Below are positions 2 to 14,134 of a DNA stretch of 14,286 bases, one piece after another; position 1 is the first letter of the stretch; each line of letters starts with the position of its first letter. Under the pieces are notes generated by a model that was given only the letters and a program-made list of their open reading frames with translations, had not been told where the DNA came from and ran no database searches. The DNA comes from Candidatus Undinarchaeota archaeon (GTDB lineage Archaea; SpSt-1190): positions 1 through 14,286 of the forward strand of contig CAYVAH010000020.1 of assembly GCA_964449215.1 (NCBI GenBank). Reading direction: 5' to 3'. A program made the position numbers and the translations under genes.

Positions 2-2593
2 GGAGGCGGAGGAGACAAGAACTGCTGCATAAACAGCCAGGAATTCTGGTGCAACGAGAGCACGGGCGTTGACAGGCTCTGCTACGGCGGGCTCGTCTAT
101 CCGTGCGACTACTGGTGTGACGTCTTTGGCCAGGTGGGCACATATACCTGCACTCCCGAAGCCGATGGGGACTGCACCTCCTCGACAACCTGCAGCGGAG
201 ATGAATGTGAGTGCTACAAGAGTGAAGGGACGTCGTGCACCTGGGACTCCGAATGTGCCGAAAACAACTGTGAGAGCTACACCAAGGAGACCCCGGCGGA
301 CCCAAGCCTCGGGAACATGTCGGGAAGCCTGATCGGGAAGGTCTGCTGCCCCGTGGGTCACTGCGCCTTTGACCGGGATAATGATGGCACGGTGGACTCC
401 TGCGCCGTGAACACCAGCGGGTCAATTGACGCTGACAGGGATAATGACCTGGACTACTGCTATGATGGAACCTGGAAGGAATGTCCGGACTACATAGCAG
501 AAAACCAGAAGGCCAGCGATTGTAGCTGCCTCGGGAATGGAATAGCTGTCAACAAGAGCGGGACATGGGTCTGCAGAAAACCACCTGTGAATCTCAACTA
601 TGACACCGACATTTCTTGCGGGACCCTTTGCGATTCGGACTCTGACCTCACGAATACTGAGCTGATTGATGCGAGCGGGAACTGTCATGTCTTTGAAACG
701 GCCTGCTCAAATGTGATGCCCGAATCCTGGTGGGAAGGGAACAGCTCCCTGATAGTAGGGCATGTCATGACTAACTGCCCATGCGGTGAAGCGGCGAGCT
801 GCAACATATCCGTCGAGAGCAACGGGCAAAGGGCGGCAAAGGAATTCTCCGCCCCGAGTGGGCAGAGCACAACCGTCACTCTGTTTCCGAACTTCGCTTA
901 CGGGGAGAACAACGTGTCAATAGCCTGCTCATGCTCAATGCTCGGAACGGTTTGCTGGGACAAGAGCCCCGCCACGGTAAGCAGCTCCGCCTCTATTCCG
1001 GCAACGGAGTGCGTGGCCGGCAAATCCTGCGACCTCAAACTAAACGTGTCGAATGTTGGAGGCGTTGATACCACAACAAGGGCATACCTGCAAGCCACTA
1101 GGGGCTTGCAGCAGCACATGAACTCCAGCAGTTATCTCGTGCAGGGGGGCACTTACCACGTGTTCAGCTACACCGACACCTACGCCTGCTCCTGGTATAA
1201 CGCAACCTGGCTCACCGGGAAGGCATCGGTACCCGTTGATTACGTTGGAACCGTGGAGCTCACGGACCTGTCCTATAATTACACCACCAACCGCACGGGA
1301 GAACTGAAGCAATGCGAGAGCGCGGCGGACTGCACCCTGTGTTGCTCAGGCTACTGGTGGTGCTGGGCCAACTCCTCGCAGTCCTCTGACTTCACCTGCT
1401 CTGGAGGTGTCTGCTGCCCGGCTGGGGAGCATTTCCAGAAGGGTGCGTGCTGTCTGTCCTCCGAAAGGTGCTGCCTGGTGGATGGCGACTGCAACACGGG
1501 AGAGTGGTGCGACAACTACACCACAGGCTTCCCGGAGGGGAATTTCTTCTGCAGGGAAAAGAAGGAACTCGGATATTCCTGCCAGCAGGACAGGGAGTGT
1601 GACTCCGGCTACTGTGGTGATGGCATATGCGCCGACCCCGAGCCGGTAACACTGAGCGAGTGGTTCGAGTGCAAGCCCTACCAGAGCAACTCCTTCTGCT
1701 CATATCAAAGTGTGAGCGGGGCGTACAACCTCGATCCCAAGGGCTGCAACTCAGACAGTGATTGTGGAAGCGGTTATTACTGTTACCTGCCGAGGCACGC
1801 CTGCCTCGAGTGTGCAACACCCAACACAATCTATGGAGAATTGAACGTGAGCGATGATGGACTCTGCCCGAGCACCTCCTGCATAGGGCATGACCTGGAC
1901 TGCTGCTCCACCGACAGCGACTGCTCCTCTGCGGAGTGGTGTGACGCCTCCGCATCCTGCACAGCCTGCTCGACCCGCAGCGACGGTGTGTGCTCCTCCC
2001 CGGCATGCATAGGAACGGACCCGGACTGCTGCTCCAGCTCCGGTGACTGTGGGGAGGGTCTCAGCTGTGTCTCCAACACCTGCACGGGGAATGTCGGGCA
2101 GGCCTGCAGCGGCGACGGGCAGTGCACAGGGGGACTCAAGTGCCTTGGGGGCGTATGTGCCAAGCAGAGCTTCATCGCGCTCAGCCCGGAAGGAAGCTAT
2201 GAAGCGGACCTCGGCGAAATACTAAAGCTCACGCTCATAGTAAGTGACCCACAGAACCAGCAGGACAGATACAAGGTGGAAGTTGACCCGGGTTATGTGC
2301 CTGATTCTGCCTTCGTGAGGATAGATGGCGAAAGGGAAGAGGAGTTTGAAATGGGCAAGGGCGAGGTCAGGAAGTTCCTCGTAACCGTAGCTGCTGCCAA
2401 GGTTCCAAGCATCAACACAGTGATTCACGTTAGCAGCATGACAAACTCCTACATCCACGACAATGCCAGCATAAGTGTTCAGGTCACACCCGTGACCACC
2501 GCAAACGTGCCCTCCGCCCCCGTGGGTGCCTGGCTCCCGGTGCTCATTCTCGGGTATATAATTGGTATGGTACTCACAGGTAAAAACTTATAA
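2..2593 (+). CDS. Large cysteine-rich, C-terminally membrane-anchored cell-surface glycoprotein (5'-truncated by window edge)
   Basis: The frame of ORF 134..2593 stays open back to position 2 (GGGGDKNCCINSQEFWCNES...), so the true start is outside the window. About 80 Cys in ~860 visible aa, with many CxxDxDC-type modules, DxDxD(G) motifs and N-x-S/T sequons. Two Cys-poor beta-rich segments look Ig/CARDB-like. The C-terminus is hydrophobic (VGAWLPVLILGYIIGMVL) followed by TGKNL-stop. Confidence 0.85.
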   Translation, partial: GGGGDKNCCINSQEFWCNESTGVDRLCYGGLVYPCDYWCDVFGQVGTYTCTPEADGDCTSSTTCSGDECECYKSEGTSCTWDSECAENNCESYTKETPADPSLGNMSGSLIGKVCCPVGHCAFDRDNDGTVDSCAVNTSGSIDADRDNDLDYCYDGTWKECPDYIAENQKASDCSCLGNGIAVNKSGTWVCRKPPVNLNYDTDISCGTLCDSDSDLTNTELIDASGNCHVFETACSNVMPESWWEGNSSLIVGHVMTNCPCGEAASCNISVESNGQRAAKEFSAPSGQSTTVTLFPNFAYGENNVSIACSCSMLGTVCWDKSPATVSSSASIPATECVAGKSCDLKLNVSNVGGVDTTTRAYLQATRGLQQHMNSSSYLVQGGTYHVFSYTDTYACSWYNATWLTGKASVPVDYVGTVELTDLSYNYTTNRTGELKQCESAADCTLCCSGYWWCWANSSQSSDFTCSGGVCCPAGEHFQKGACCLSSERCCLVDGDCNTGEWCDNYTTGFPEGNFFCREKKELGYSCQQDRECDSGYCGDGICADPEPVTLSEWFECKPYQSNSFCSYQSVSGAYNLDPKGCNSDSDCGSGYYCYLPRHACLECATPNTIYGELNVSDDGLCPSTSCIGHDLDCCSTDSDCSSAEWCDASASCTACSTRSDGVCSSPACIGTDPDCCSSSGDCGEGLSCVSNTCTGNVGQACSGDGQCTGGLKCLGGVCAKQSFIALSPEGSYEADLGEILKLTLIVSDPQNQQDRYKVEVDPGYVPDSAFVRIDGEREEEFEMGKGEVRKFLVTVAAAKVPSINTVIHVSSMTNSYIHDNASISVQVTPVTTANVPSAPVGAWLPVLILGYIIGMVLTGKNL
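2583..2593 (+). promoter_or_regulatory. Putative BRE/TATA for the 2615 gene, overlapping the upstream stop codon
   Basis: AAAAACTTATAA-like element ending at 2593, 21 nt before the ATG at 2615. Confidence 0.55.
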
Positions 2594-2614
2594 TCTGACA
2601 CCTCTCTTTTGGGC

Positions 2615-2971
2615 ATGGGTATAGTACGAAAAATACTCGGGGATGAAAAACCAACAAAGGAGGACCTCCTCACCATAAAGGACAATGTCGAAGAGGAGAT
2701 TGCCGAGGAACAGAAAAAACAGGAGGAGCTCAAGTCGGAGGACCTGGTCCCGAAGGGCATAGAAATGTTCGTGAGGCTCTCCGACTACAACAAAATTGTG
2801 TCACAGCTGAAACGCCTTGACACCGTCATAGACCGGATTGAGGAGATAGAGCGCATGCACACCGAACTCCAGGACATCCACGACAAGTTCACCGAACATC
2901 TCGAGACCACACTCACAGAGATGGAAGAAATCCGCGAGGAGCTCAGTTCCAAGCTCGGTCCTATGAAGTAA
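2615..2971 (+). CDS. Small acidic coiled-coil hypothetical protein with N-terminal amphipathic helix (118 aa)
   Basis: ATG 2615 is preferred over TTG 2609 given the TATA spacing. Starts MGIVRKILG, then an E/K-rich linker, then MFVRLSDYNKIV and a heptad-patterned helix to the end. Confidence 0.8.
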   Translation: MGIVRKILGDEKPTKEDLLTIKDNVEEEIAEEQKKQEELKSEDLVPKGIEMFVRLSDYNKIVSQLKRLDTVIDRIEEIERMHTELQDIHDKFTEHLETTLTEMEEIREELSSKLGPMK

Positions 2972-5248: not shown

Positions 5249-5917
5249 GTGGACCCGGTACTGGAAAGGCTCTACAGGTATGGGGAACCCCTGAAAAACT
5301 TCATCGAGGGGTTGTATATAGTCCCGAAATACATACCGGAATCCTATGTTTCGGCATCCTGCACCCGGGGAAGCAATGAAATAAACCTGAGCATGGCACC
5401 CGGGCAGCGGGTGTTCTCCAACCGGGACGGCACGGTGACCTGGTTCCCCGACGCCGGGAATCCTGAGATTGAAAGGGACCTGAAAAGATACACTGGAATG
5501 AAGCTCCCGGATGCAATCTCAAAGGCAAAAAAGGAACTGGAAGAAGCAGGGTCAGAAAGGTCGCGGGTGATGGCAGAGCGGACCCTGAGGGACCTCTACC
5601 ACGAGCTCGCCCATAAGGTAATGGGATATATGATTCCAGAGATAGACCCCGTCAGGGAAGAAGGGTGTGCAATCCTGCTGGAAAACTTCTGGTTCGCCTA
5701 CTCCGAACTTGGATCGGAAAAGGCCGCCATTGAAAAGGCAAAGAACTACATAATCACCGAGCTGGGGAAGTTGAGGAAAGCTCCCAGAAAAACGGAGGAA
5801 CAACGGAGATTCTACAGGGACAAATTCTCACATCTCCAGAGAGCCATAGAGGCCTACGCCAGGCTTGAGGAGGGAACAAGCCCTGAAGAGCTTATTTTCG
5901 GTGGTTGTTACCACTAA
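5249..5917 (+). CDS. Hypothetical protein with zincin/gluzincin-like metallopeptidase motif
   Basis: 222-aa ORF with GTG start filling the gap downstream of a TATA box. HELAH at 5600-5614 is followed by EEGCA at 5657-5671. No signal peptide or TM segment is evident. Confidence 0.7.
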   Translation: MDPVLERLYRYGEPLKNFIEGLYIVPKYIPESYVSASCTRGSNEINLSMAPGQRVFSNRDGTVTWFPDAGNPEIERDLKRYTGMKLPDAISKAKKELEEAGSERSRVMAERTLRDLYHELAHKVMGYMIPEIDPVREEGCAILLENFWFAYSELGSEKAAIEKAKNYIITELGKLRKAPRKTEEQRRFYRDKFSHLQRAIEAYARLEEGTSPEELIFGGCYH

Positions 5918-10333: not shown

Positions 10334-11188
10334 TCAAAGGTATTTTAGGACCTCTTTAACGGGAGCAGATGGAGAAAGATACTTCTCTTCAGAAATCCTG
10401 GGGCAGGAAGCGTTTACCCAGAAATCAACCCTGAAATTGCGCACCTCAGGAGTTATAATGTCGCCTACAATCATTATCACCTTTTTACCCAGAGATTCAA
10501 GCTTATCTTTCACCAGAACTGCCTCTTTCTCGTAGTTCTGTCCCGGTTTCAGGCCGACTAGCACCCCTACCTTCTCAGCAGTGAACAGCGCCGCCACCGG
10601 GAACCTGGGTGGGTCAGCACGCTCCCCAAACCAGTTGAACGTCGGCTTTCCAAGTGCAGCCACTGCACCAGCATGGAAAATGCCATCACAAGCCACAACA
10701 AAACCGTCCACCTTGTCGAGGATCCGGCGAGCGGCCCCCACATCACAGCCCGTAACCTGGGCAGGATACGTCGCCATGAAGTCAGGGCGACCTCCCATAA
10801 CCACCTCCTTCCCGGCACGCTCGAGCTTCTTCGCATATTCCCCAACCACGTCCCTGTATTGAATCACGAAGACCAGCCCAACCCTGTGGAAGTCCGGAAC
10901 GAATTCCGGAACGCCCTGCAGCTGGACTTCAAAGAAGTGCACGTTCCCCGGGTATTTCAAACCAATAGGGCGGCTGTGACCGAAATTGAATACCGCATCA
11001 ACCTTGAGCCTGTCAAGGAGGTGCAGGGGAACATCACAGGCACCATAACAGGGATTCGAGAGAAAGACGGGCTCGGGTATCACCCTGGCAAGCTCTCCAG
11101 CGTCAGCCATCAAGCCCGCCGGGAGAAGGACCAGCACCTTGCGGTAGCCGTTGGACTGAACAACCTCCTTGACACTGTCAATGTTCAT
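10334..11188 (-). CDS. dph2: Diphthamide biosynthesis enzyme Dph2 (2-(3-amino-3-carboxypropyl)histidine synthase)
   Basis: Three Fe-S ligand cysteine motifs (CYGACD, QVTGCD, ASCPRI) plus FGHS, DGIFH and KPGQ. Start reassigned to ATG 11188 (MNIDSVKE), which overlaps the upstream HAD stop; 284 aa. Confidence 0.9.
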   Translation of the reverse strand: MNIDSVKEVVQSNGYRKVLVLLPAGLMADAGELARVIPEPVFLSNPCYGACDVPLHLLDRLKVDAVFNFGHSRPIGLKYPGNVHFFEVQLQGVPEFVPDFHRVGLVFVIQYRDVVGEYAKKLERAGKEVVMGGRPDFMATYPAQVTGCDVGAARRILDKVDGFVVACDGIFHAGAVAALGKPTFNWFGERADPPRFPVAALFTAEKVGVLVGLKPGQNYEKEAVLVKDKLESLGKKVIMIVGDIITPEVRNFRVDFWVNASCPRISEEKYLSPSAPVKEVLKYL

Positions 11189-11756
11189 GGAGCATCCCGA
11201 CCACAAGCTCCTCCAGCTCACTTGGCTTTTTCAGGGCGTCCACGAGGGCTCCCCTGCGGTGTTCCTCATCCAGAAACCAGAGCGCCTGGAAAGCCCTGAC
11301 ACCCATAGAGCGGAGCTTCTTCACAACAGCAGCCTTGTCATCCACAAATATGTCAACACCCAGGGCTGCCACCTTCTTCACCTTGTCATCATCCTCCTTA
11401 ACTATGAAAACCCTGGAATGAGGGAAGCCAACCAGCTTCTCCAGCTGGTGGCGGTTCCCGACCGACACTATGAAAATATCACCACCATTGGCGATGACCG
11501 AAGCAGCTATGGACTTCAACTCCTTGCTCATGTGTTCATCCACCCCGCTGAAAAGGATTCTCCTCACCTCCGCCTCGTTGAAGTCCCTCATCAGCACATC
11601 AAACAGGTAGTCAATACTCTTCCGCCCGGAAACTCCCTCGAAAACCTCTTCGAAGCTTCTCCCAATCCCGCGGAGACGCGAGTCAAGCGACCGGAAGTAG
11701 GCATTGGTATCGAATATCACCCTGTCGAGGTCAAACGCTACTTTAATAGCTCGCAA
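11178..11756 (-). CDS. HAD-superfamily hydrolase (putative phosphatase)
   Basis: Motif I VAFDLDRVIFD, motif II IVSVG, a Lys in DDDKVKK and motif IV FVDDK. Overlaps both neighbours. Confidence 0.75.
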   Translation of the reverse strand: MRAIKVAFDLDRVIFDTNAYFRSLDSRLRGIGRSFEEVFEGVSGRKSIDYLFDVLMRDFNEAEVRRILFSGVDEHMSKELKSIAASVIANGGDIFIVSVGNRHQLEKLVGFPHSRVFIVKEDDDKVKKVAALGVDIFVDDKAAVVKKLRSMGVRAFQALWFLDEEHRRGALVDALKKPSELEELVVGMLHEH

Positions 11757-12556
11757 AGGGCATCACCCAATTTCTCCGGGTCGTGGAGGTGACCATCAAG
11801 GGACATGTCCCTGAGAACCAGCCTTTCATCATGGAGGTCCACCTCCACCCCACCCGGCTTCTGCGCCAGCACGTAGTCAAACTTCATGAACTTCTCCACA
11901 TTTTCCAGATAGTCGGAAAGCTTGAACCCCCCCACAACGGGGAGGTCGTTGCGGATGCTCGTGACAAGAATCTTCGCAGGGATGTGGGAAAGCCTGGCCA
12001 CAAACCCGGCAGGGAGGAGGTGGGGCATGAGACTCGTAAACAGACTCCCCGGCCCAAGAACCATAGCATCCGCCTCCTCAACAAGGGCAAGAACCTCAGG
12101 GTTCACAGGGAGTTCCGGCTCCAGCCAGATTTTTTCCACCTTGCCCTTGCACCTGTCTATCTGGGTTTCCCCCACCACCTTCTCCCCGGAGACAACTGCC
12201 ACCAAATCACACGGCTCGAGAAACTGGGGAACAACCCTGTGATGCACTCCCATGGCTTCTCTGTATTCCTCCAGACCCTTGCGGAACCCGAGCCTGCGAA
12301 CCAGGTCAAGTATCACGAGGTTGCCAATGGCGTGACCCCCGTAACGGGATTCCATCGTGGAAGAAAGCGGACCGCCAAAAGAATCAACCACCCGCCGGAA
12401 GTCTCCAACCGCAGGGATACCGAACTCCTCGCGGAGCCTGCCGGTGCTGCCCCCGTTATCGGTGGTCCCGACCACCGCCGAAAAATCCAGCCCCTTAAGA
12501 AGCAGGGCGCGAACGGTAGCGCTCAGACCCTTCCCGCCACCAAAACAGACAATCAC
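11738..12556 (-). CDS. yvcK: YvcK/GlmR (UPF0052, CofD-like) UDP-GlcNAc-binding protein
   Basis: GGGKGLS, TTDNGGSTGRLR, GDFRR, GHAIGNL, GETQID, GPGSLFTSLMPHL and HDPEKL are YvcK-type signatures. The GTG start overlaps the upstream TGA (GTGA). Confidence 0.88.
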   Translation of the reverse strand: MIVCFGGGKGLSATVRALLLKGLDFSAVVGTTDNGGSTGRLREEFGIPAVGDFRRVVDSFGGPLSSTMESRYGGHAIGNLVILDLVRRLGFRKGLEEYREAMGVHHRVVPQFLEPCDLVAVVSGEKVVGETQIDRCKGKVEKIWLEPELPVNPEVLALVEEADAMVLGPGSLFTSLMPHLLPAGFVARLSHIPAKILVTSIRNDLPVVGGFKLSDYLENVEKFMKFDYVLAQKPGGVEVDLHDERLVLRDMSLDGHLHDPEKLGDALCELLK

Positions 12557-13767
12557 TTCATCACCCTCTTCTGAACAACATACAGCTTCTTTCCATCGGG
12601 AACATTACGGTCCACAATCGTCCCCGGACCCACCGTGACATTCTTCCCCACAAGAACACCGGGCATTATCAAAGCACCCACACCAACCCGCGTCCCATCG
12701 CCCACAGCACAGCCGAAATGCCCCCTCCCAAGCTCCTTCTTTTTCCCCTTCACCACAGAAACCACGCTCTTCTTGTCAAACCTGCGGTTGGCAGTCACCG
12801 CACCAAAACCAAACCAGACCTTCCTGCCCAGGACGGAATCCCCGACAAAAGAGTGATGAACGGCACAGCCCGGCCCCACAAGGCTCCGGGCGACCTCACT
12901 GCCGAATCCGACAACGGAACCCATCTCGACACAGCTTTGCCTGACAAGAGCGGAAGTCCCGACAAATGCACCCCTTCCAATATAGGCGGGCCCGATGATC
13001 CGGGCACCCCCCATCACCCTGGCGCCCTCATCAACAAACACATCCCCCTCGAGGGTGGCATCCACGGAAACCTCTCCCTTCACCTTGTGCTTGACCTCCT
13101 CAAGCAACCTCTCCATAACTGAAAGGGCGTCCCATGGATACTTGAGACTCGGCACCTCCTCCTTCGGGACTATCTCGAAGTTTGCAGGATGCTCGGAGAG
13201 ATAGGAGGAAAGAACCCTCTCAAATTTGTATTGCCCGCCCCCTCCGGAAGACGCAAGCCTCAGAACGAACTCGTGGCTGAGCCTGTATATGGAGCTCACA
13301 ACAAGGTTGGACTCCGGTTTCTTCGGCTTTTCCCTGATTCCCACAACAAAGTCCCCTTCAACCACAGCGACCCCATATTCACCCGGGTTGTCAACCTTTG
13401 ACAGGAGGAGCTTCGTCCCGACCCCCGAAACAAGTTTTTCGAGGGCGAACTTGCTGAACTGGTGACCGGAAACCACAAGCACATCATCGCCGTAGTCCTT
13501 TGCCCCGACAAGTATGGCATCCCACATTCCTCTCGGCCTTTCCTGGACACGGAACTCAACATCCTTGTTGAGCTTACAGTCCTTCAGGGCCTTGCTCACG
13601 CACTCGTCCGGTGGCTCCACAACCACAACTTCGTCAACCTCACGTGGAATGTTGTTTATGGTTCTCGCTATCAAGGGCTTCCCGAGAATCTCAACCAGGG
13701 ACTTGTGGCTGCCGCTGAAGGGCCAAAAACGGGAGGACTCCCCAGCGGCGAGAATCACGGCTCGCAT
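12553..13767 (-). CDS. glmU: GlmU-like bifunctional sugar-1-phosphate nucleotidyltransferase/acetyltransferase (archaeal type)
   Basis: True start is ATG 13767 (MRAVILAAGESSRFWP), preceded by GAGGATGGT. Contains GKPLI, YGVA, EKP and YPWD, then a hexapeptide-repeat left-handed beta-helix with HHSFVGDS and TANRRFD; 404 aa. The ORF-track extension to 13965 runs into the SRP RNA gene and is not real. Confidence 0.85.
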   Translation of the reverse strand: MRAVILAAGESSRFWPFSGSHKSLVEILGKPLIARTINNIPREVDEVVVVEPPDECVSKALKDCKLNKDVEFRVQERPRGMWDAILVGAKDYGDDVLVVSGHQFSKFALEKLVSGVGTKLLLSKVDNPGEYGVAVVEGDFVVGIREKPKKPESNLVVSSIYRLSHEFVLRLASSGGGGQYKFERVLSSYLSEHPANFEIVPKEEVPSLKYPWDALSVMERLLEEVKHKVKGEVSVDATLEGDVFVDEGARVMGGARIIGPAYIGRGAFVGTSALVRQSCVEMGSVVGFGSEVARSLVGPGCAVHHSFVGDSVLGRKVWFGFGAVTANRRFDKKSVVSVVKGKKKELGRGHFGCAVGDGTRVGVGALIMPGVLVGKNVTVGPGTIVDRNVPDGKKLYVVQKRVMK

Positions 13768-13840: not shown

Positions 13841-14112
13841 TGCCCGGCTAGGCCGGGGGGCTGACGTCCCCTACTCCGCAAATCGTCTTGGCGGGGCCGA
13901 AGTCCCGGGGAAGGGGTACACTGCATGAGGGGACGCTCTGAAAGCGGGGCGTCGAAGCCCTGCACTGTGGTGGCCCCATAAGTGCTGAACTGGGCCAGGT
14001 CCGGGAGGAAGCAACCCTAAGTGCTTTTTGGGGTGCCCGCAGACCGCAGGGTGGAGTCCCACTCCGGAGAAAAACCTCGTGGAAGAACTTCGACCCCGGG
14101 ACGTGCCGGGCA
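13841..14112 (+). ncRNA. ffs: Archaeal signal recognition particle RNA (7S), ~272 nt, apparently lacking helix 6
   Basis: Terminal helix TGCCCGGC (13841-48) / GCCGGGCA (14105-12). Archaeal 5' signature GCTAGGCCGGGGGG...TCCCC. Alu loop-loop complement GACG (13863-66) / CGTC (13884-87). Long helix 5, e.g. GTCCCGGGG/CCCCGGGAC, CATGAGG/CCTCGTG and GCCCTGC/GCAGGGT. SRP54-binding helix 8 motif GCCAGGTCC-GGGA-GGAAGCAAC at about 13994-14015. Confidence 0.95.
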
Positions 14113-14125
14113 CTCCCATTCAACA

Positions 14126-14134
14126 GCTTTTTAA
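14126..14134 (+). terminator. Possible oligo-T terminator of SRP RNA (could alternatively be a TATA box for a downstream transcript)
   Basis: TTTTT at 14128-14132, about 15 nt after the end of helix 1. Confidence 0.4.

What the first reader, a model, noticed from the sequence alone, without database searches (positions are those of the whole stretch)
13955..14052. Archaeal SRP RNA without helix 6 (no SRP19 binding site)
Seen: hand folding gives a continuous rod. GCCCTGC (13957-63) pairs with GCAGGGT (14046-52), CTGTGG (13965-70) with CCGCAG (14037-42), and CCCCA (13974-78) with TGGGG (14029-33). After only a 1x2 U-rich loop comes helix 8, AAGTGCT (13980-86) / AGTGCTT (14020-26), capped by the CAGG-TCC-GGGA-GGA-AGCA motif. 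No sequence is left for the ~35-nt helix 6, and the total is ~272 nt rather than ~300. Known: archaeal and eukaryotic SRP RNAs normally have helix 6, which SRP19 clamps to helix 8, whereas Alu-plus-helix-8 without helix 6 is the Bacillus-type large bacterial architecture. Inference: an SRP19-independent archaeal SRP that converged on the bacterial large form. Reduced SRP RNAs may already be reported in some archaeal lineages, so novelty needs checking.
Basis: partly seen in the sequence, partly recalled or inferred. Interest (0 to 1): 0.8.

Follow-up and report, generated by a model that had tools for sequence, protein, structure and literature searches.

The report
Archaeal SRP RNA lacking helix 6
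This is the real gene for the RNA core of the particle that delivers membrane proteins in a small-genome archaeon; it lacks the arm that textbook archaea use to hold protein SRP19, that protein is missing too, and a few relatives keep a half-sized or damaged arm.

Summary
Confirmed. Window 13841-14112 (+) is a 272-nt archaeal SRP RNA (RF01857, 114 bits) with all 40 helix-6 columns deleted. Helix 5 runs straight into helix 8; covariation supports this rod. The genome has SRP54, FtsY and SecY; SRP19 was not found. In its phylum SRP54 is found in 17 of 17 genomes and SRP19 in 0 of 17; a control phylum has SRP19 in 23 of 26, with full-length RNAs. The short form is widespread: 10 genomes of other families and a second phylum (SRP19 0 of 29). 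This scan reported the same form at least 8 times on other DNA; ten literature searches found no description. Added here: intermediate states. Two same-class genomes keep a 24-nt UUCG-capped helix with the canonical base and AA bulge. One control-phylum genome lacks SRP19 at its syntenic slot and has lost the GNAR loop. This family's SRP54 also lacks about 15-18 residues of the insertion-box region. Best reading: a working one-protein SRP, reached by loss. Primitive absence is not excluded. No expression or binding data.

The parts
13841..14112 (+). SRP (7S) RNA gene, 272 nt, helix 6 absent
   Evidence: RF01857 114.4 bits, full model, 40 helix-6 columns deleted; 65% GC against 52.5% for the genome
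13808..13821 (+). Archaeal promoter: purine-rich BRE-like stretch and TATA box starting 27 nt before the 5' end
   Evidence: Sequence; a TATA-like box at -26 to -29 in 10 of 10 RNAs of the phylum examined, own included. Function inferred
13841..13899 (+). Alu (small) domain, 5' part: helix 1 (pairs with 14105-14112), helices 3 and 4; loop-loop complement GACG 13863-66 with CGUC 13884-87; the UGUNR motif is not kept
13954..13956 (+). 3-nt bulge of the 5e hinge motif
   Evidence: CM alignment, consensus fold
13957..14052 (+). Unbranched rod: distal helix 5 continuous with helix 8
   Evidence: 89% of cells paired, 18 of 39 pairs with two-sided change, 0 of 500 shuffles reach the covariation score, slid controls 42-51%
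13978..13980 (+). Junction where helix 6 would branch; one unpaired U opposite UU 14027-28
   Evidence: strand offset 2 nt against 39-43 in helix-6 RNAs
13987..14019 (+). Helix 8 SRP54-binding site: asymmetric loop, symmetric loop CAGG/AGCA, GGGA tetraloop
   Evidence: role from the literature on helix 8 (PMC4605306 passages)
14128..14132 (+). T5 tract, possible archaeal terminator
   Evidence: sequence only; not tested
13932..13953 (+). Alternative 9-bp AAAG-capped hairpin of the computed MFE, 5' of the 5e bulge; not conserved, not a displaced helix 6
   Evidence: 0.9 kcal/mol better than the canonical helix 5; 48.8% paired in relatives, 228 of 500 shuffles as high
12553..13767 (-). Divergent neighbour: GlmU-like nucleotidyltransferase with hexapeptide repeats. 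The 470-aa ORF call from 13965 is a spurious extension over the RNA gene, as are the 82-119 aa ORFs across it

Best explanation
A functional, minimal archaeal SRP: one RNA plus SRP54. The RNA is transcribed from its own TATA promoter and folds into an Alu domain joined by a long helix 5 directly to helix 8. The SRP54 M domain binds the helix-8 loops, recognises signal sequences at the ribosome exit, and docks on FtsY to hand the ribosome to SecY. With no helix 6 there is nothing to clamp, so SRP19 is not needed and its gene is gone, as in the bacterial large SRP. Shown here: gene, fold, helix-6 absence, presence of SRP54, FtsY and SecY, non-detection of SRP19. Inferred: expression, SRP54 binding, targeting, Alu action on the ribosome. 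Likeliest history (about 0.65-0.7 within this reading): SRP19, dispensable in archaea, was lost first; the helix-6 loop then decayed, and the helix shortened and was deleted.
For: RNA. SRP54 (429 aa, M-domain RNA-binding motif intact), FtsY (268 aa), SecY in G000. SRP19: no Pfam match at E<=10; own profile of 12 SRP19s against 14,616 ORFs, best E 2.5; tblastn best E 0.08; none beside rps8e, its neighbour in 6 of 12 SRP19 loci. Phylum: SRP54 17 of 17, SRP19 0 of 17, RNA found in 15 of 17, 13 without helix 6 and 2 with a short one. Relatives set: SRP19 over cut-off in 0 of 23 helix-6-less, 0 of 2 short-helix and 12 of 13 full-length genomes. Control phylum: SRP19 23 of 26, RNA 24 of 26, all with helix 6. 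Second short-form phylum: RNA 28 of 29, SRP19 0 of 29. Intermediates: G010/G012, G061. SRP19 deletion is harmless in Haloferax and archaeal SRP54 binds without it (PMC2905702 section 4).
Against: No expression or binding data. All genomes are MAGs: SRP19 was also missed in 3 of 26 control genomes, two of them (G017, G058) with an intact GNAR helix 6. The Pfam search itself rang in only 3 of the 4 archaeal controls. A very divergent SRP19 cannot be excluded. In Thermoproteus SRP54 binds only weakly without SRP19 (PMC4731332 passages). The order of events rests on three genomes and a single-gene quick tree with weak deep support. Kin are not independent.
Confidence: 0.85

Rival explanations
1. 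Primitive absence: helix 6 and SRP19 were never present in these lineages. The Alu-plus-helix-8 form is ancestral and shared with Bacillus-type bacteria, and helix 6 with SRP19 arose after this group split from other archaea. The short hairpin of G010/G012 is then an independent insertion or a proto-helix.
For: The state is not tied to tiny genomes: SRP19 is missing in a phylum of 1.0-2.4 Mb genomes (0 of 29) and in 3.6-3.8 Mb genomes. On the SRP54 tree one origin of the label is not ruled out. Fresh hairpin insertions occur elsewhere in these RNAs (G003, G009, G016, G088). A root of archaea next to DPANN has been proposed (recalled, not read).
Against: The G010/G012 hairpin sits at the helix-6 position with the canonical 5-bp base, 3' AA bulge and UU linker; AA at that offset is seen in 26 of 36 full-length RNAs against 22% of random 7-nt windows. 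G061 shows that loss with loop decay does happen. These lineages shed other parts too.
Confidence: 0.2
2. SRP19 is present but unassembled or too divergent to detect, or helix 6 is supplied by a displaced hairpin or a second RNA.
For: G000 is 94.9% complete in 49 contigs; 3 of 26 control genomes lack a hit; the MFE holds an AAAG-capped hairpin at 13932-53.
Against: 0 of 17 and 0 of 29 against 23 of 26. The hairpin is not conserved and lies outside the 5e bulge. One SRP RNA match in G000. A helix-6 profile found nothing above background in the genome, but that test has little power.
Confidence: 0.05
3. The RNA is a bacterial large SRP RNA acquired by transfer, or the contig is a bacterial contaminant.
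For: RF01854 passes its cut-off, 82.4 bits.
Against: The archaeal model scores higher (114.4). TATA promoter; archaeal neighbours TBP, Cdc48 and a diphthamide-synthesis gene; orthologues in 15 of 17 genomes of the phylum; SRP54 is closest to Pyrococcus/Methanocaldococcus structures; no HU-family gene.
Confidence: 0.02
4. A decaying, non-functional gene.
For: UGUNR motif lost; several relatives fall under the Rfam cut-off.
Against: Compensatory changes along the whole RNA: 47 of 79 consensus pairs have a two-sided change; promoter and helix-8 motif kept; SRP54 and FtsY intact.
Confidence: 0.02

Closest known systems
Archaeal SRP (7S) RNA, Rfam RF01857 (Methanocaldococcus jannaschii, Archaeoglobus fulgidus, Pyrococcus furiosus)
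   Same: Helix 1, Alu helices 3 and 4, long helix 5 with the 5e bulge, helix 8 with the SRP54 motif, TATA promoter, archaeal SRP54 and FtsY
   Different: No helix 6, no GNAR loop for the helix 6-8 clamp, no SRP19 gene, UGUNR not kept. The 2010 review says SRP19 is in all archaeal subgroups and coexists with helix 6 (PMC2905702, section 4)
Bacterial large SRP RNA, Rfam RF01854 (Bacillus subtilis scRNA type)
   Same: Alu domain plus helix 5 plus helix 8 with no helix 6; about 270 nt; passes the family cut-off
   Different: Archaeal host, promoter and sequence; scores 32 bits better on the archaeal model; no HU-family gene found (HBsu binding in Bacillus is recalled)
Haloferax volcanii SRP19 deletion mutant and the Thermoplasmatales AAAG helix-6 loop
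   Same: Archaeal SRP working without SRP19 or with a relaxed helix-6 loop (PMC2905702, section 4)
   Different: Those keep helix 6; here the helix itself is gone and the state is lineage-wide
Other non-canonical SRP RNAs (permuted Thermoproteus RNA; Cryptococcus RNA)
   Same: SRP RNAs that depart from the family model
   Different: Both keep helix 6 and SRP19 (PMC4731332, PMC4605306, passages)

Membership tests
SRP RNA (all domains) | Helix 8 with symmetric and asymmetric loops (SRP54/Ffh site) | tested here: met
SRP RNA (all domains) | SRP54/Ffh and FtsY encoded in the genome | tested here: met
SRP RNA (all domains) | Expressed and bound by SRP54 | not testable with these tools
   no RNA run could be laid; no binding assay
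Canonical archaeal SRP RNA (RF01857) | Score above the gathering cut-off over the full model | tested here: met
   114.4 against 96.5
Canonical archaeal SRP RNA (RF01857) | Helix 1 and Alu helices 3/4 with complementary loops | tested here: met
Canonical archaeal SRP RNA (RF01857) | UGUNR motif | tested here: not met
   reads UACU at 13872-75; deviations are known in several archaeal groups (PMC2905702 passages)
Canonical archaeal SRP RNA (RF01857) | Helix 6 with GNAR tetraloop | tested here: not met
   40 columns deleted; rod covaries
Canonical archaeal SRP | SRP19 gene | tested here: not met
   genome 94.9% complete
Bacterial large SRP RNA (RF01854) | Alu plus helix 8, no helix 6; score above cut-off | tested here: met
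   82.4 against 60
Bacterial large SRP RNA (RF01854) | Bacterial host and best family match | tested here: not met
   archaeal context and higher archaeal score

The most novel reading that the evidence does not exclude
The Alu-plus-helix-8 SRP without SRP19 is the ancestral state, kept by DPANN-type archaea and Bacillus-type bacteria. Helix 6 with SRP19 is then a later invention of the other archaea and eukaryotes, and the 24-nt hairpin of G010/G012 is a parallel or proto form. Helix 6 would be a rare structural marker for rooting the archaeal tree with these lineages first.
Probability: 0.2. Interest if true: 0.85.

Novelty: new variant of a known kind. Interest (0 to 1): 0.52.

Why it matters
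Reviews describe archaeal SRP as RNA with helix 6 plus SRP19 and SRP54. A broad set of small-genome archaeal lineages instead seems to run a one-protein, bacterial-shaped particle. The intermediates make the order of loss testable. The presence or absence of helix 6 is a discrete character that bears on the position of DPANN and on when the archaeal/eukaryotic S domain arose. Practical point: 9 of the 15 RNAs found in this phylum fall under the Rfam cut-off, and one is called only as bacterial small SRP, so annotation misses or mislabels them.

Tried and rejected
Displaced helix 6 at 13932-53: rejected, not conserved. My first hairpin-sampling test was confounded by this and similar upstream hairpins in G000, G007, G009 and G016, so I replaced it with a strand-offset measure. 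Offsets were -1 to 3 in 21 of 23 short RNAs (G007 and G014 misfolded) and 39-43 in 32 of 36 long ones (2 not anchored, G023 no value, G061 55, but 40). The measure gave no value for G010/G012; one search gave 29 for G010 and a misfold for G012. One stem was typed one base out of register and corrected. Three RNAs were mis-anchored and the profile held one row; both were redone. Helix 6 in trans: inconclusive, low power. G017 as helix 6 without SRP19: probably an assembly gap, since the neighbouring hemD gene was not found either and its congener has SRP19. Expression: no RNA holder was listed. SRP54 tree: the careful search did not finish; quick tree only. The sigma-70 scan does not apply to archaea. 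Literature: searches found no description of a helix-6-less archaeal SRP RNA. The SRP passages of PMC7203096 lie beyond the held text. Three held supplements of PMC7414124 had no SRP19 term; its large gene tables were not seen and may show the absence.

Full report
Observation. They are the S domain of a 272-nt SRP RNA at 13841-14112 (+). Rfam Archaea_SRP matches over the full model at 114.4 bits, E 7e-26, with the 40 helix-6 positions matched by nothing. Bacteria_large_SRP also passes, at 82.4 bits. The RNA folds far better than shuffles (z -4.66). A TATA box starts 27 nt upstream, and a similar box lies at -26 to -29 in 10 of 10 RNAs of the phylum examined. The ORFs called across it are spurious; the real neighbour is a divergent GlmU-like gene starting at 13767.

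Is the rod real? On an unfitted MAFFT alignment of 9 RNAs (8 of the family, 1 of the class), the 39 pairs from helix 5 to the tip of helix 8 are formed in 89% of cells. Eighteen pairs show two-sided changes, no shuffle of 500 reaches the covariation score, and slid controls fall to 42-51% (the structure was taken from G000, which favours it over slid versions). RNAalifold gives the same unbranched S domain independently. The computed MFE of G000 has an AAAG-capped hairpin at 13932-53, 0.9 kcal/mol ahead of canonical helix 5. It is outside the 5e bulge and not conserved (48.8% paired, 228 of 500 shuffles as high), so it is not a moved helix 6.

Partners. G000 (788 kb, 94.9% complete) encodes SRP54 with an intact M-domain RNA-binding motif, a 268-aa FtsY and SecY. 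SRP19 was not found by Pfam at E<=10, by a profile of 12 archaeal SRP19s run without filters on 14,616 ORFs (best E 2.5) or by tblastn (best E 0.08). It is not beside rps8e, its neighbour in 6 of 12 SRP19 loci, in G000 or in five other genomes of the phylum.

Lineage. The six archaeal records with the closest SRP54 (59-70% identity) are labelled Ca. Altiarchaeota (4), Ca. Undinarchaeota (1) and Nanobdellati (1). The organism is therefore DPANN-type; Undinarchaeota is my guess for the 17-genome phylum.

Distribution. Own phylum: SRP54 17 of 17, SRP19 0 of 17, RNA 15 of 17, of which 13 lack helix 6 and 2 have a short one. In the 41-genome relatives set the RNA was found in 38. SRP19 passes the cut-off in 0 of 23 helix-6-less genomes (one weak hit in G006, E 0.086), 0 of 2 short-helix genomes and 12 of 13 full-length ones. 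A control phylum of MAGs has the RNA in 24 of 26, all with helix 6, and SRP19 in 23 of 26. A second short-form phylum, with 1.0-2.4 Mb genomes, has the RNA in 28 of 29, at 267-284 nt except one of 309 nt whose extra hairpin is 3' of helix 8, and SRP19 in 0 of 29. Kin are not independent, so no p-value is given.

Intermediate states. (i) G010 and G012 (same class, 3.6-3.8 Mb, 98-99% complete) have 302-nt RNAs with a 24-nt hairpin at the helix-6 position: a 5-bp base, a 3' AA bulge, a 4-bp tip and a UUCG loop in place of GNAR. Their helix-8 loop is altered too, and SRP19 was not found by Pfam or NCBIfam. AA at that offset occurs in 26 of 36 full-length RNAs against 22% of random windows. Two bulged helix-6 adenosines contact helix 8 in M. 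jannaschii (PMC2905702, section 4); that these are the same two is inferred. This favours a relic (about 0.55) over a fresh insertion (about 0.45); insertions do occur elsewhere in these RNAs. (ii) G061, in the control phylum, keeps a full-length helix 6 but has no GNAR loop; 34 of the 36 full-length RNAs show GNAR in the MFE and one more can form it in another register. In G060 and in G061's family relative G062, SRP19 directly follows hemD; in G061 hemD is followed within about 80 nt by another gene on the same contig. Against a strict link: G058 has an intact GGAG loop yet no SRP19 hit and none after hemD; G017 is probably an assembly gap.

History. The quick SRP54 tree (41 rows, SH-aLRT only) clusters the labels strongly (3 changes against 12.6 shuffled) and puts G010/G012 among helix-6-less lineages, but deep branches are weak and one origin is not ruled out. 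Stepwise loss is my best reading. Primitive absence remains open, because larger-genome lineages lack SRP19 as well.

Mechanism. SRP54 binds helix 8 directly, recognises signal peptides and docks on FtsY for hand-over to SecY; the Alu domain, with its loop-loop complement intact, presumably contacts the ribosome. Archaeal SRP54 binds RNA without SRP19 and SRP19 is dispensable in Haloferax (PMC6098224 passages), though binding without SRP19 is weak in Thermoproteus. None of these steps was tested on this RNA. The family's SRP54 is further trimmed: 54-60 residues between the G1 and G3 motifs in 9 of 9 measurable family members against 69-75 in 29 of 29 others; 3 rows could not be measured.

What is known. 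I read section 4 and passages of PMC2905702, and passages only of PMC4731332, PMC4605306, PMC6098224, PMC8091004 and PMC10266531. The last reports a nanohaloarchaeal SRP RNA, and its passages name no SRP19; its structure figure was not seen. The relevant part of PMC7203096 is not held; three supplements of PMC7414124 had no SRP19 term and its large tables were not seen. Ten searches found no account of an archaeal SRP RNA without helix 6; subscription journals are not covered. Earlier notes of this scan describe the same form in at least 8 findings on other genomes; a look-up for the short UUCG helix returned nothing.

Verdict. A real SRP RNA, not a member of the canonical helix-6 archaeal type, working most likely like the bacterial large SRP. 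It is a new variant of a known kind, shared by many lineages, with intermediates and an open question of loss against primitive absence. Interest 0.52.

Noticed in passing
G000:C9 (L002:1048-2337, minus) and family f1 loci L111-L120, L123: SRP54 of this family lacks about 15-18 residues of the insertion-box region of the G domain (54-60 residues between G1 and G3 against 69-75), while the DxxR motif is kept and FtsY keeps the full region.
   Followed up: partly
L018:1501-1802 (G012), L019:144-445 (G010): 24-nt UUCG-capped helix at the helix-6 position, altered helix-8 loop, no SRP19; a tRNA gene follows 18 nt downstream.
   Followed up: yes
L092:1501-1816 and L275 (G061): Full-length helix 6 without a GNAR loop and no SRP19 at its syntenic slot after hemD, in a phylum that otherwise keeps both: an apparent independent loss.
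   Followed up: partly
G003, G036, G037, G038, G010/G012, several G071-G098; loci L148-L227: Helix-8 loop variants UGAC, UGAU and UGGC recur in place of GGAA, mostly in helix-6-less RNAs but also with full helix 6 and SRP19 (G038).
   Followed up: partly
L207: Metagenomic SRP RNA with a UUCG-capped hairpin in the helix-6 region and a UGAC helix-8 loop; host unknown.
   Followed up: no
G003, G009, G013-G016, G033, G088: Lineage-specific hairpin insertions in the Alu domain, helix 5 or helix 8 of SRP RNAs.
   Followed up: no
SRP54 alignment, G000 positions 180, 183, 207: Residues after the G3 motif and at position 207 differ systematically between helix-6-bearing and helix-6-less sets; may be only a lineage signature.
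   Followed up: no
window 2-2593 (+): 5'-open, very cysteine-rich 863-aa ORF with a C-terminal hydrophobic anchor and no Pfam match; likely a large surface protein.
   Followed up: no
window 5249-5917 (+), 2609-2971 (+), 11178-11756 (-): Three ORFs without a Pfam match; by eye the first has an HExxH-like motif and the last a HAD-like start.
   Followed up: no
G032: Groups with helix-6-bearing archaea on the SRP54 tree, yet neither SRP RNA nor SRP19 was found (95% complete, 110 contigs).
   Followed up: no
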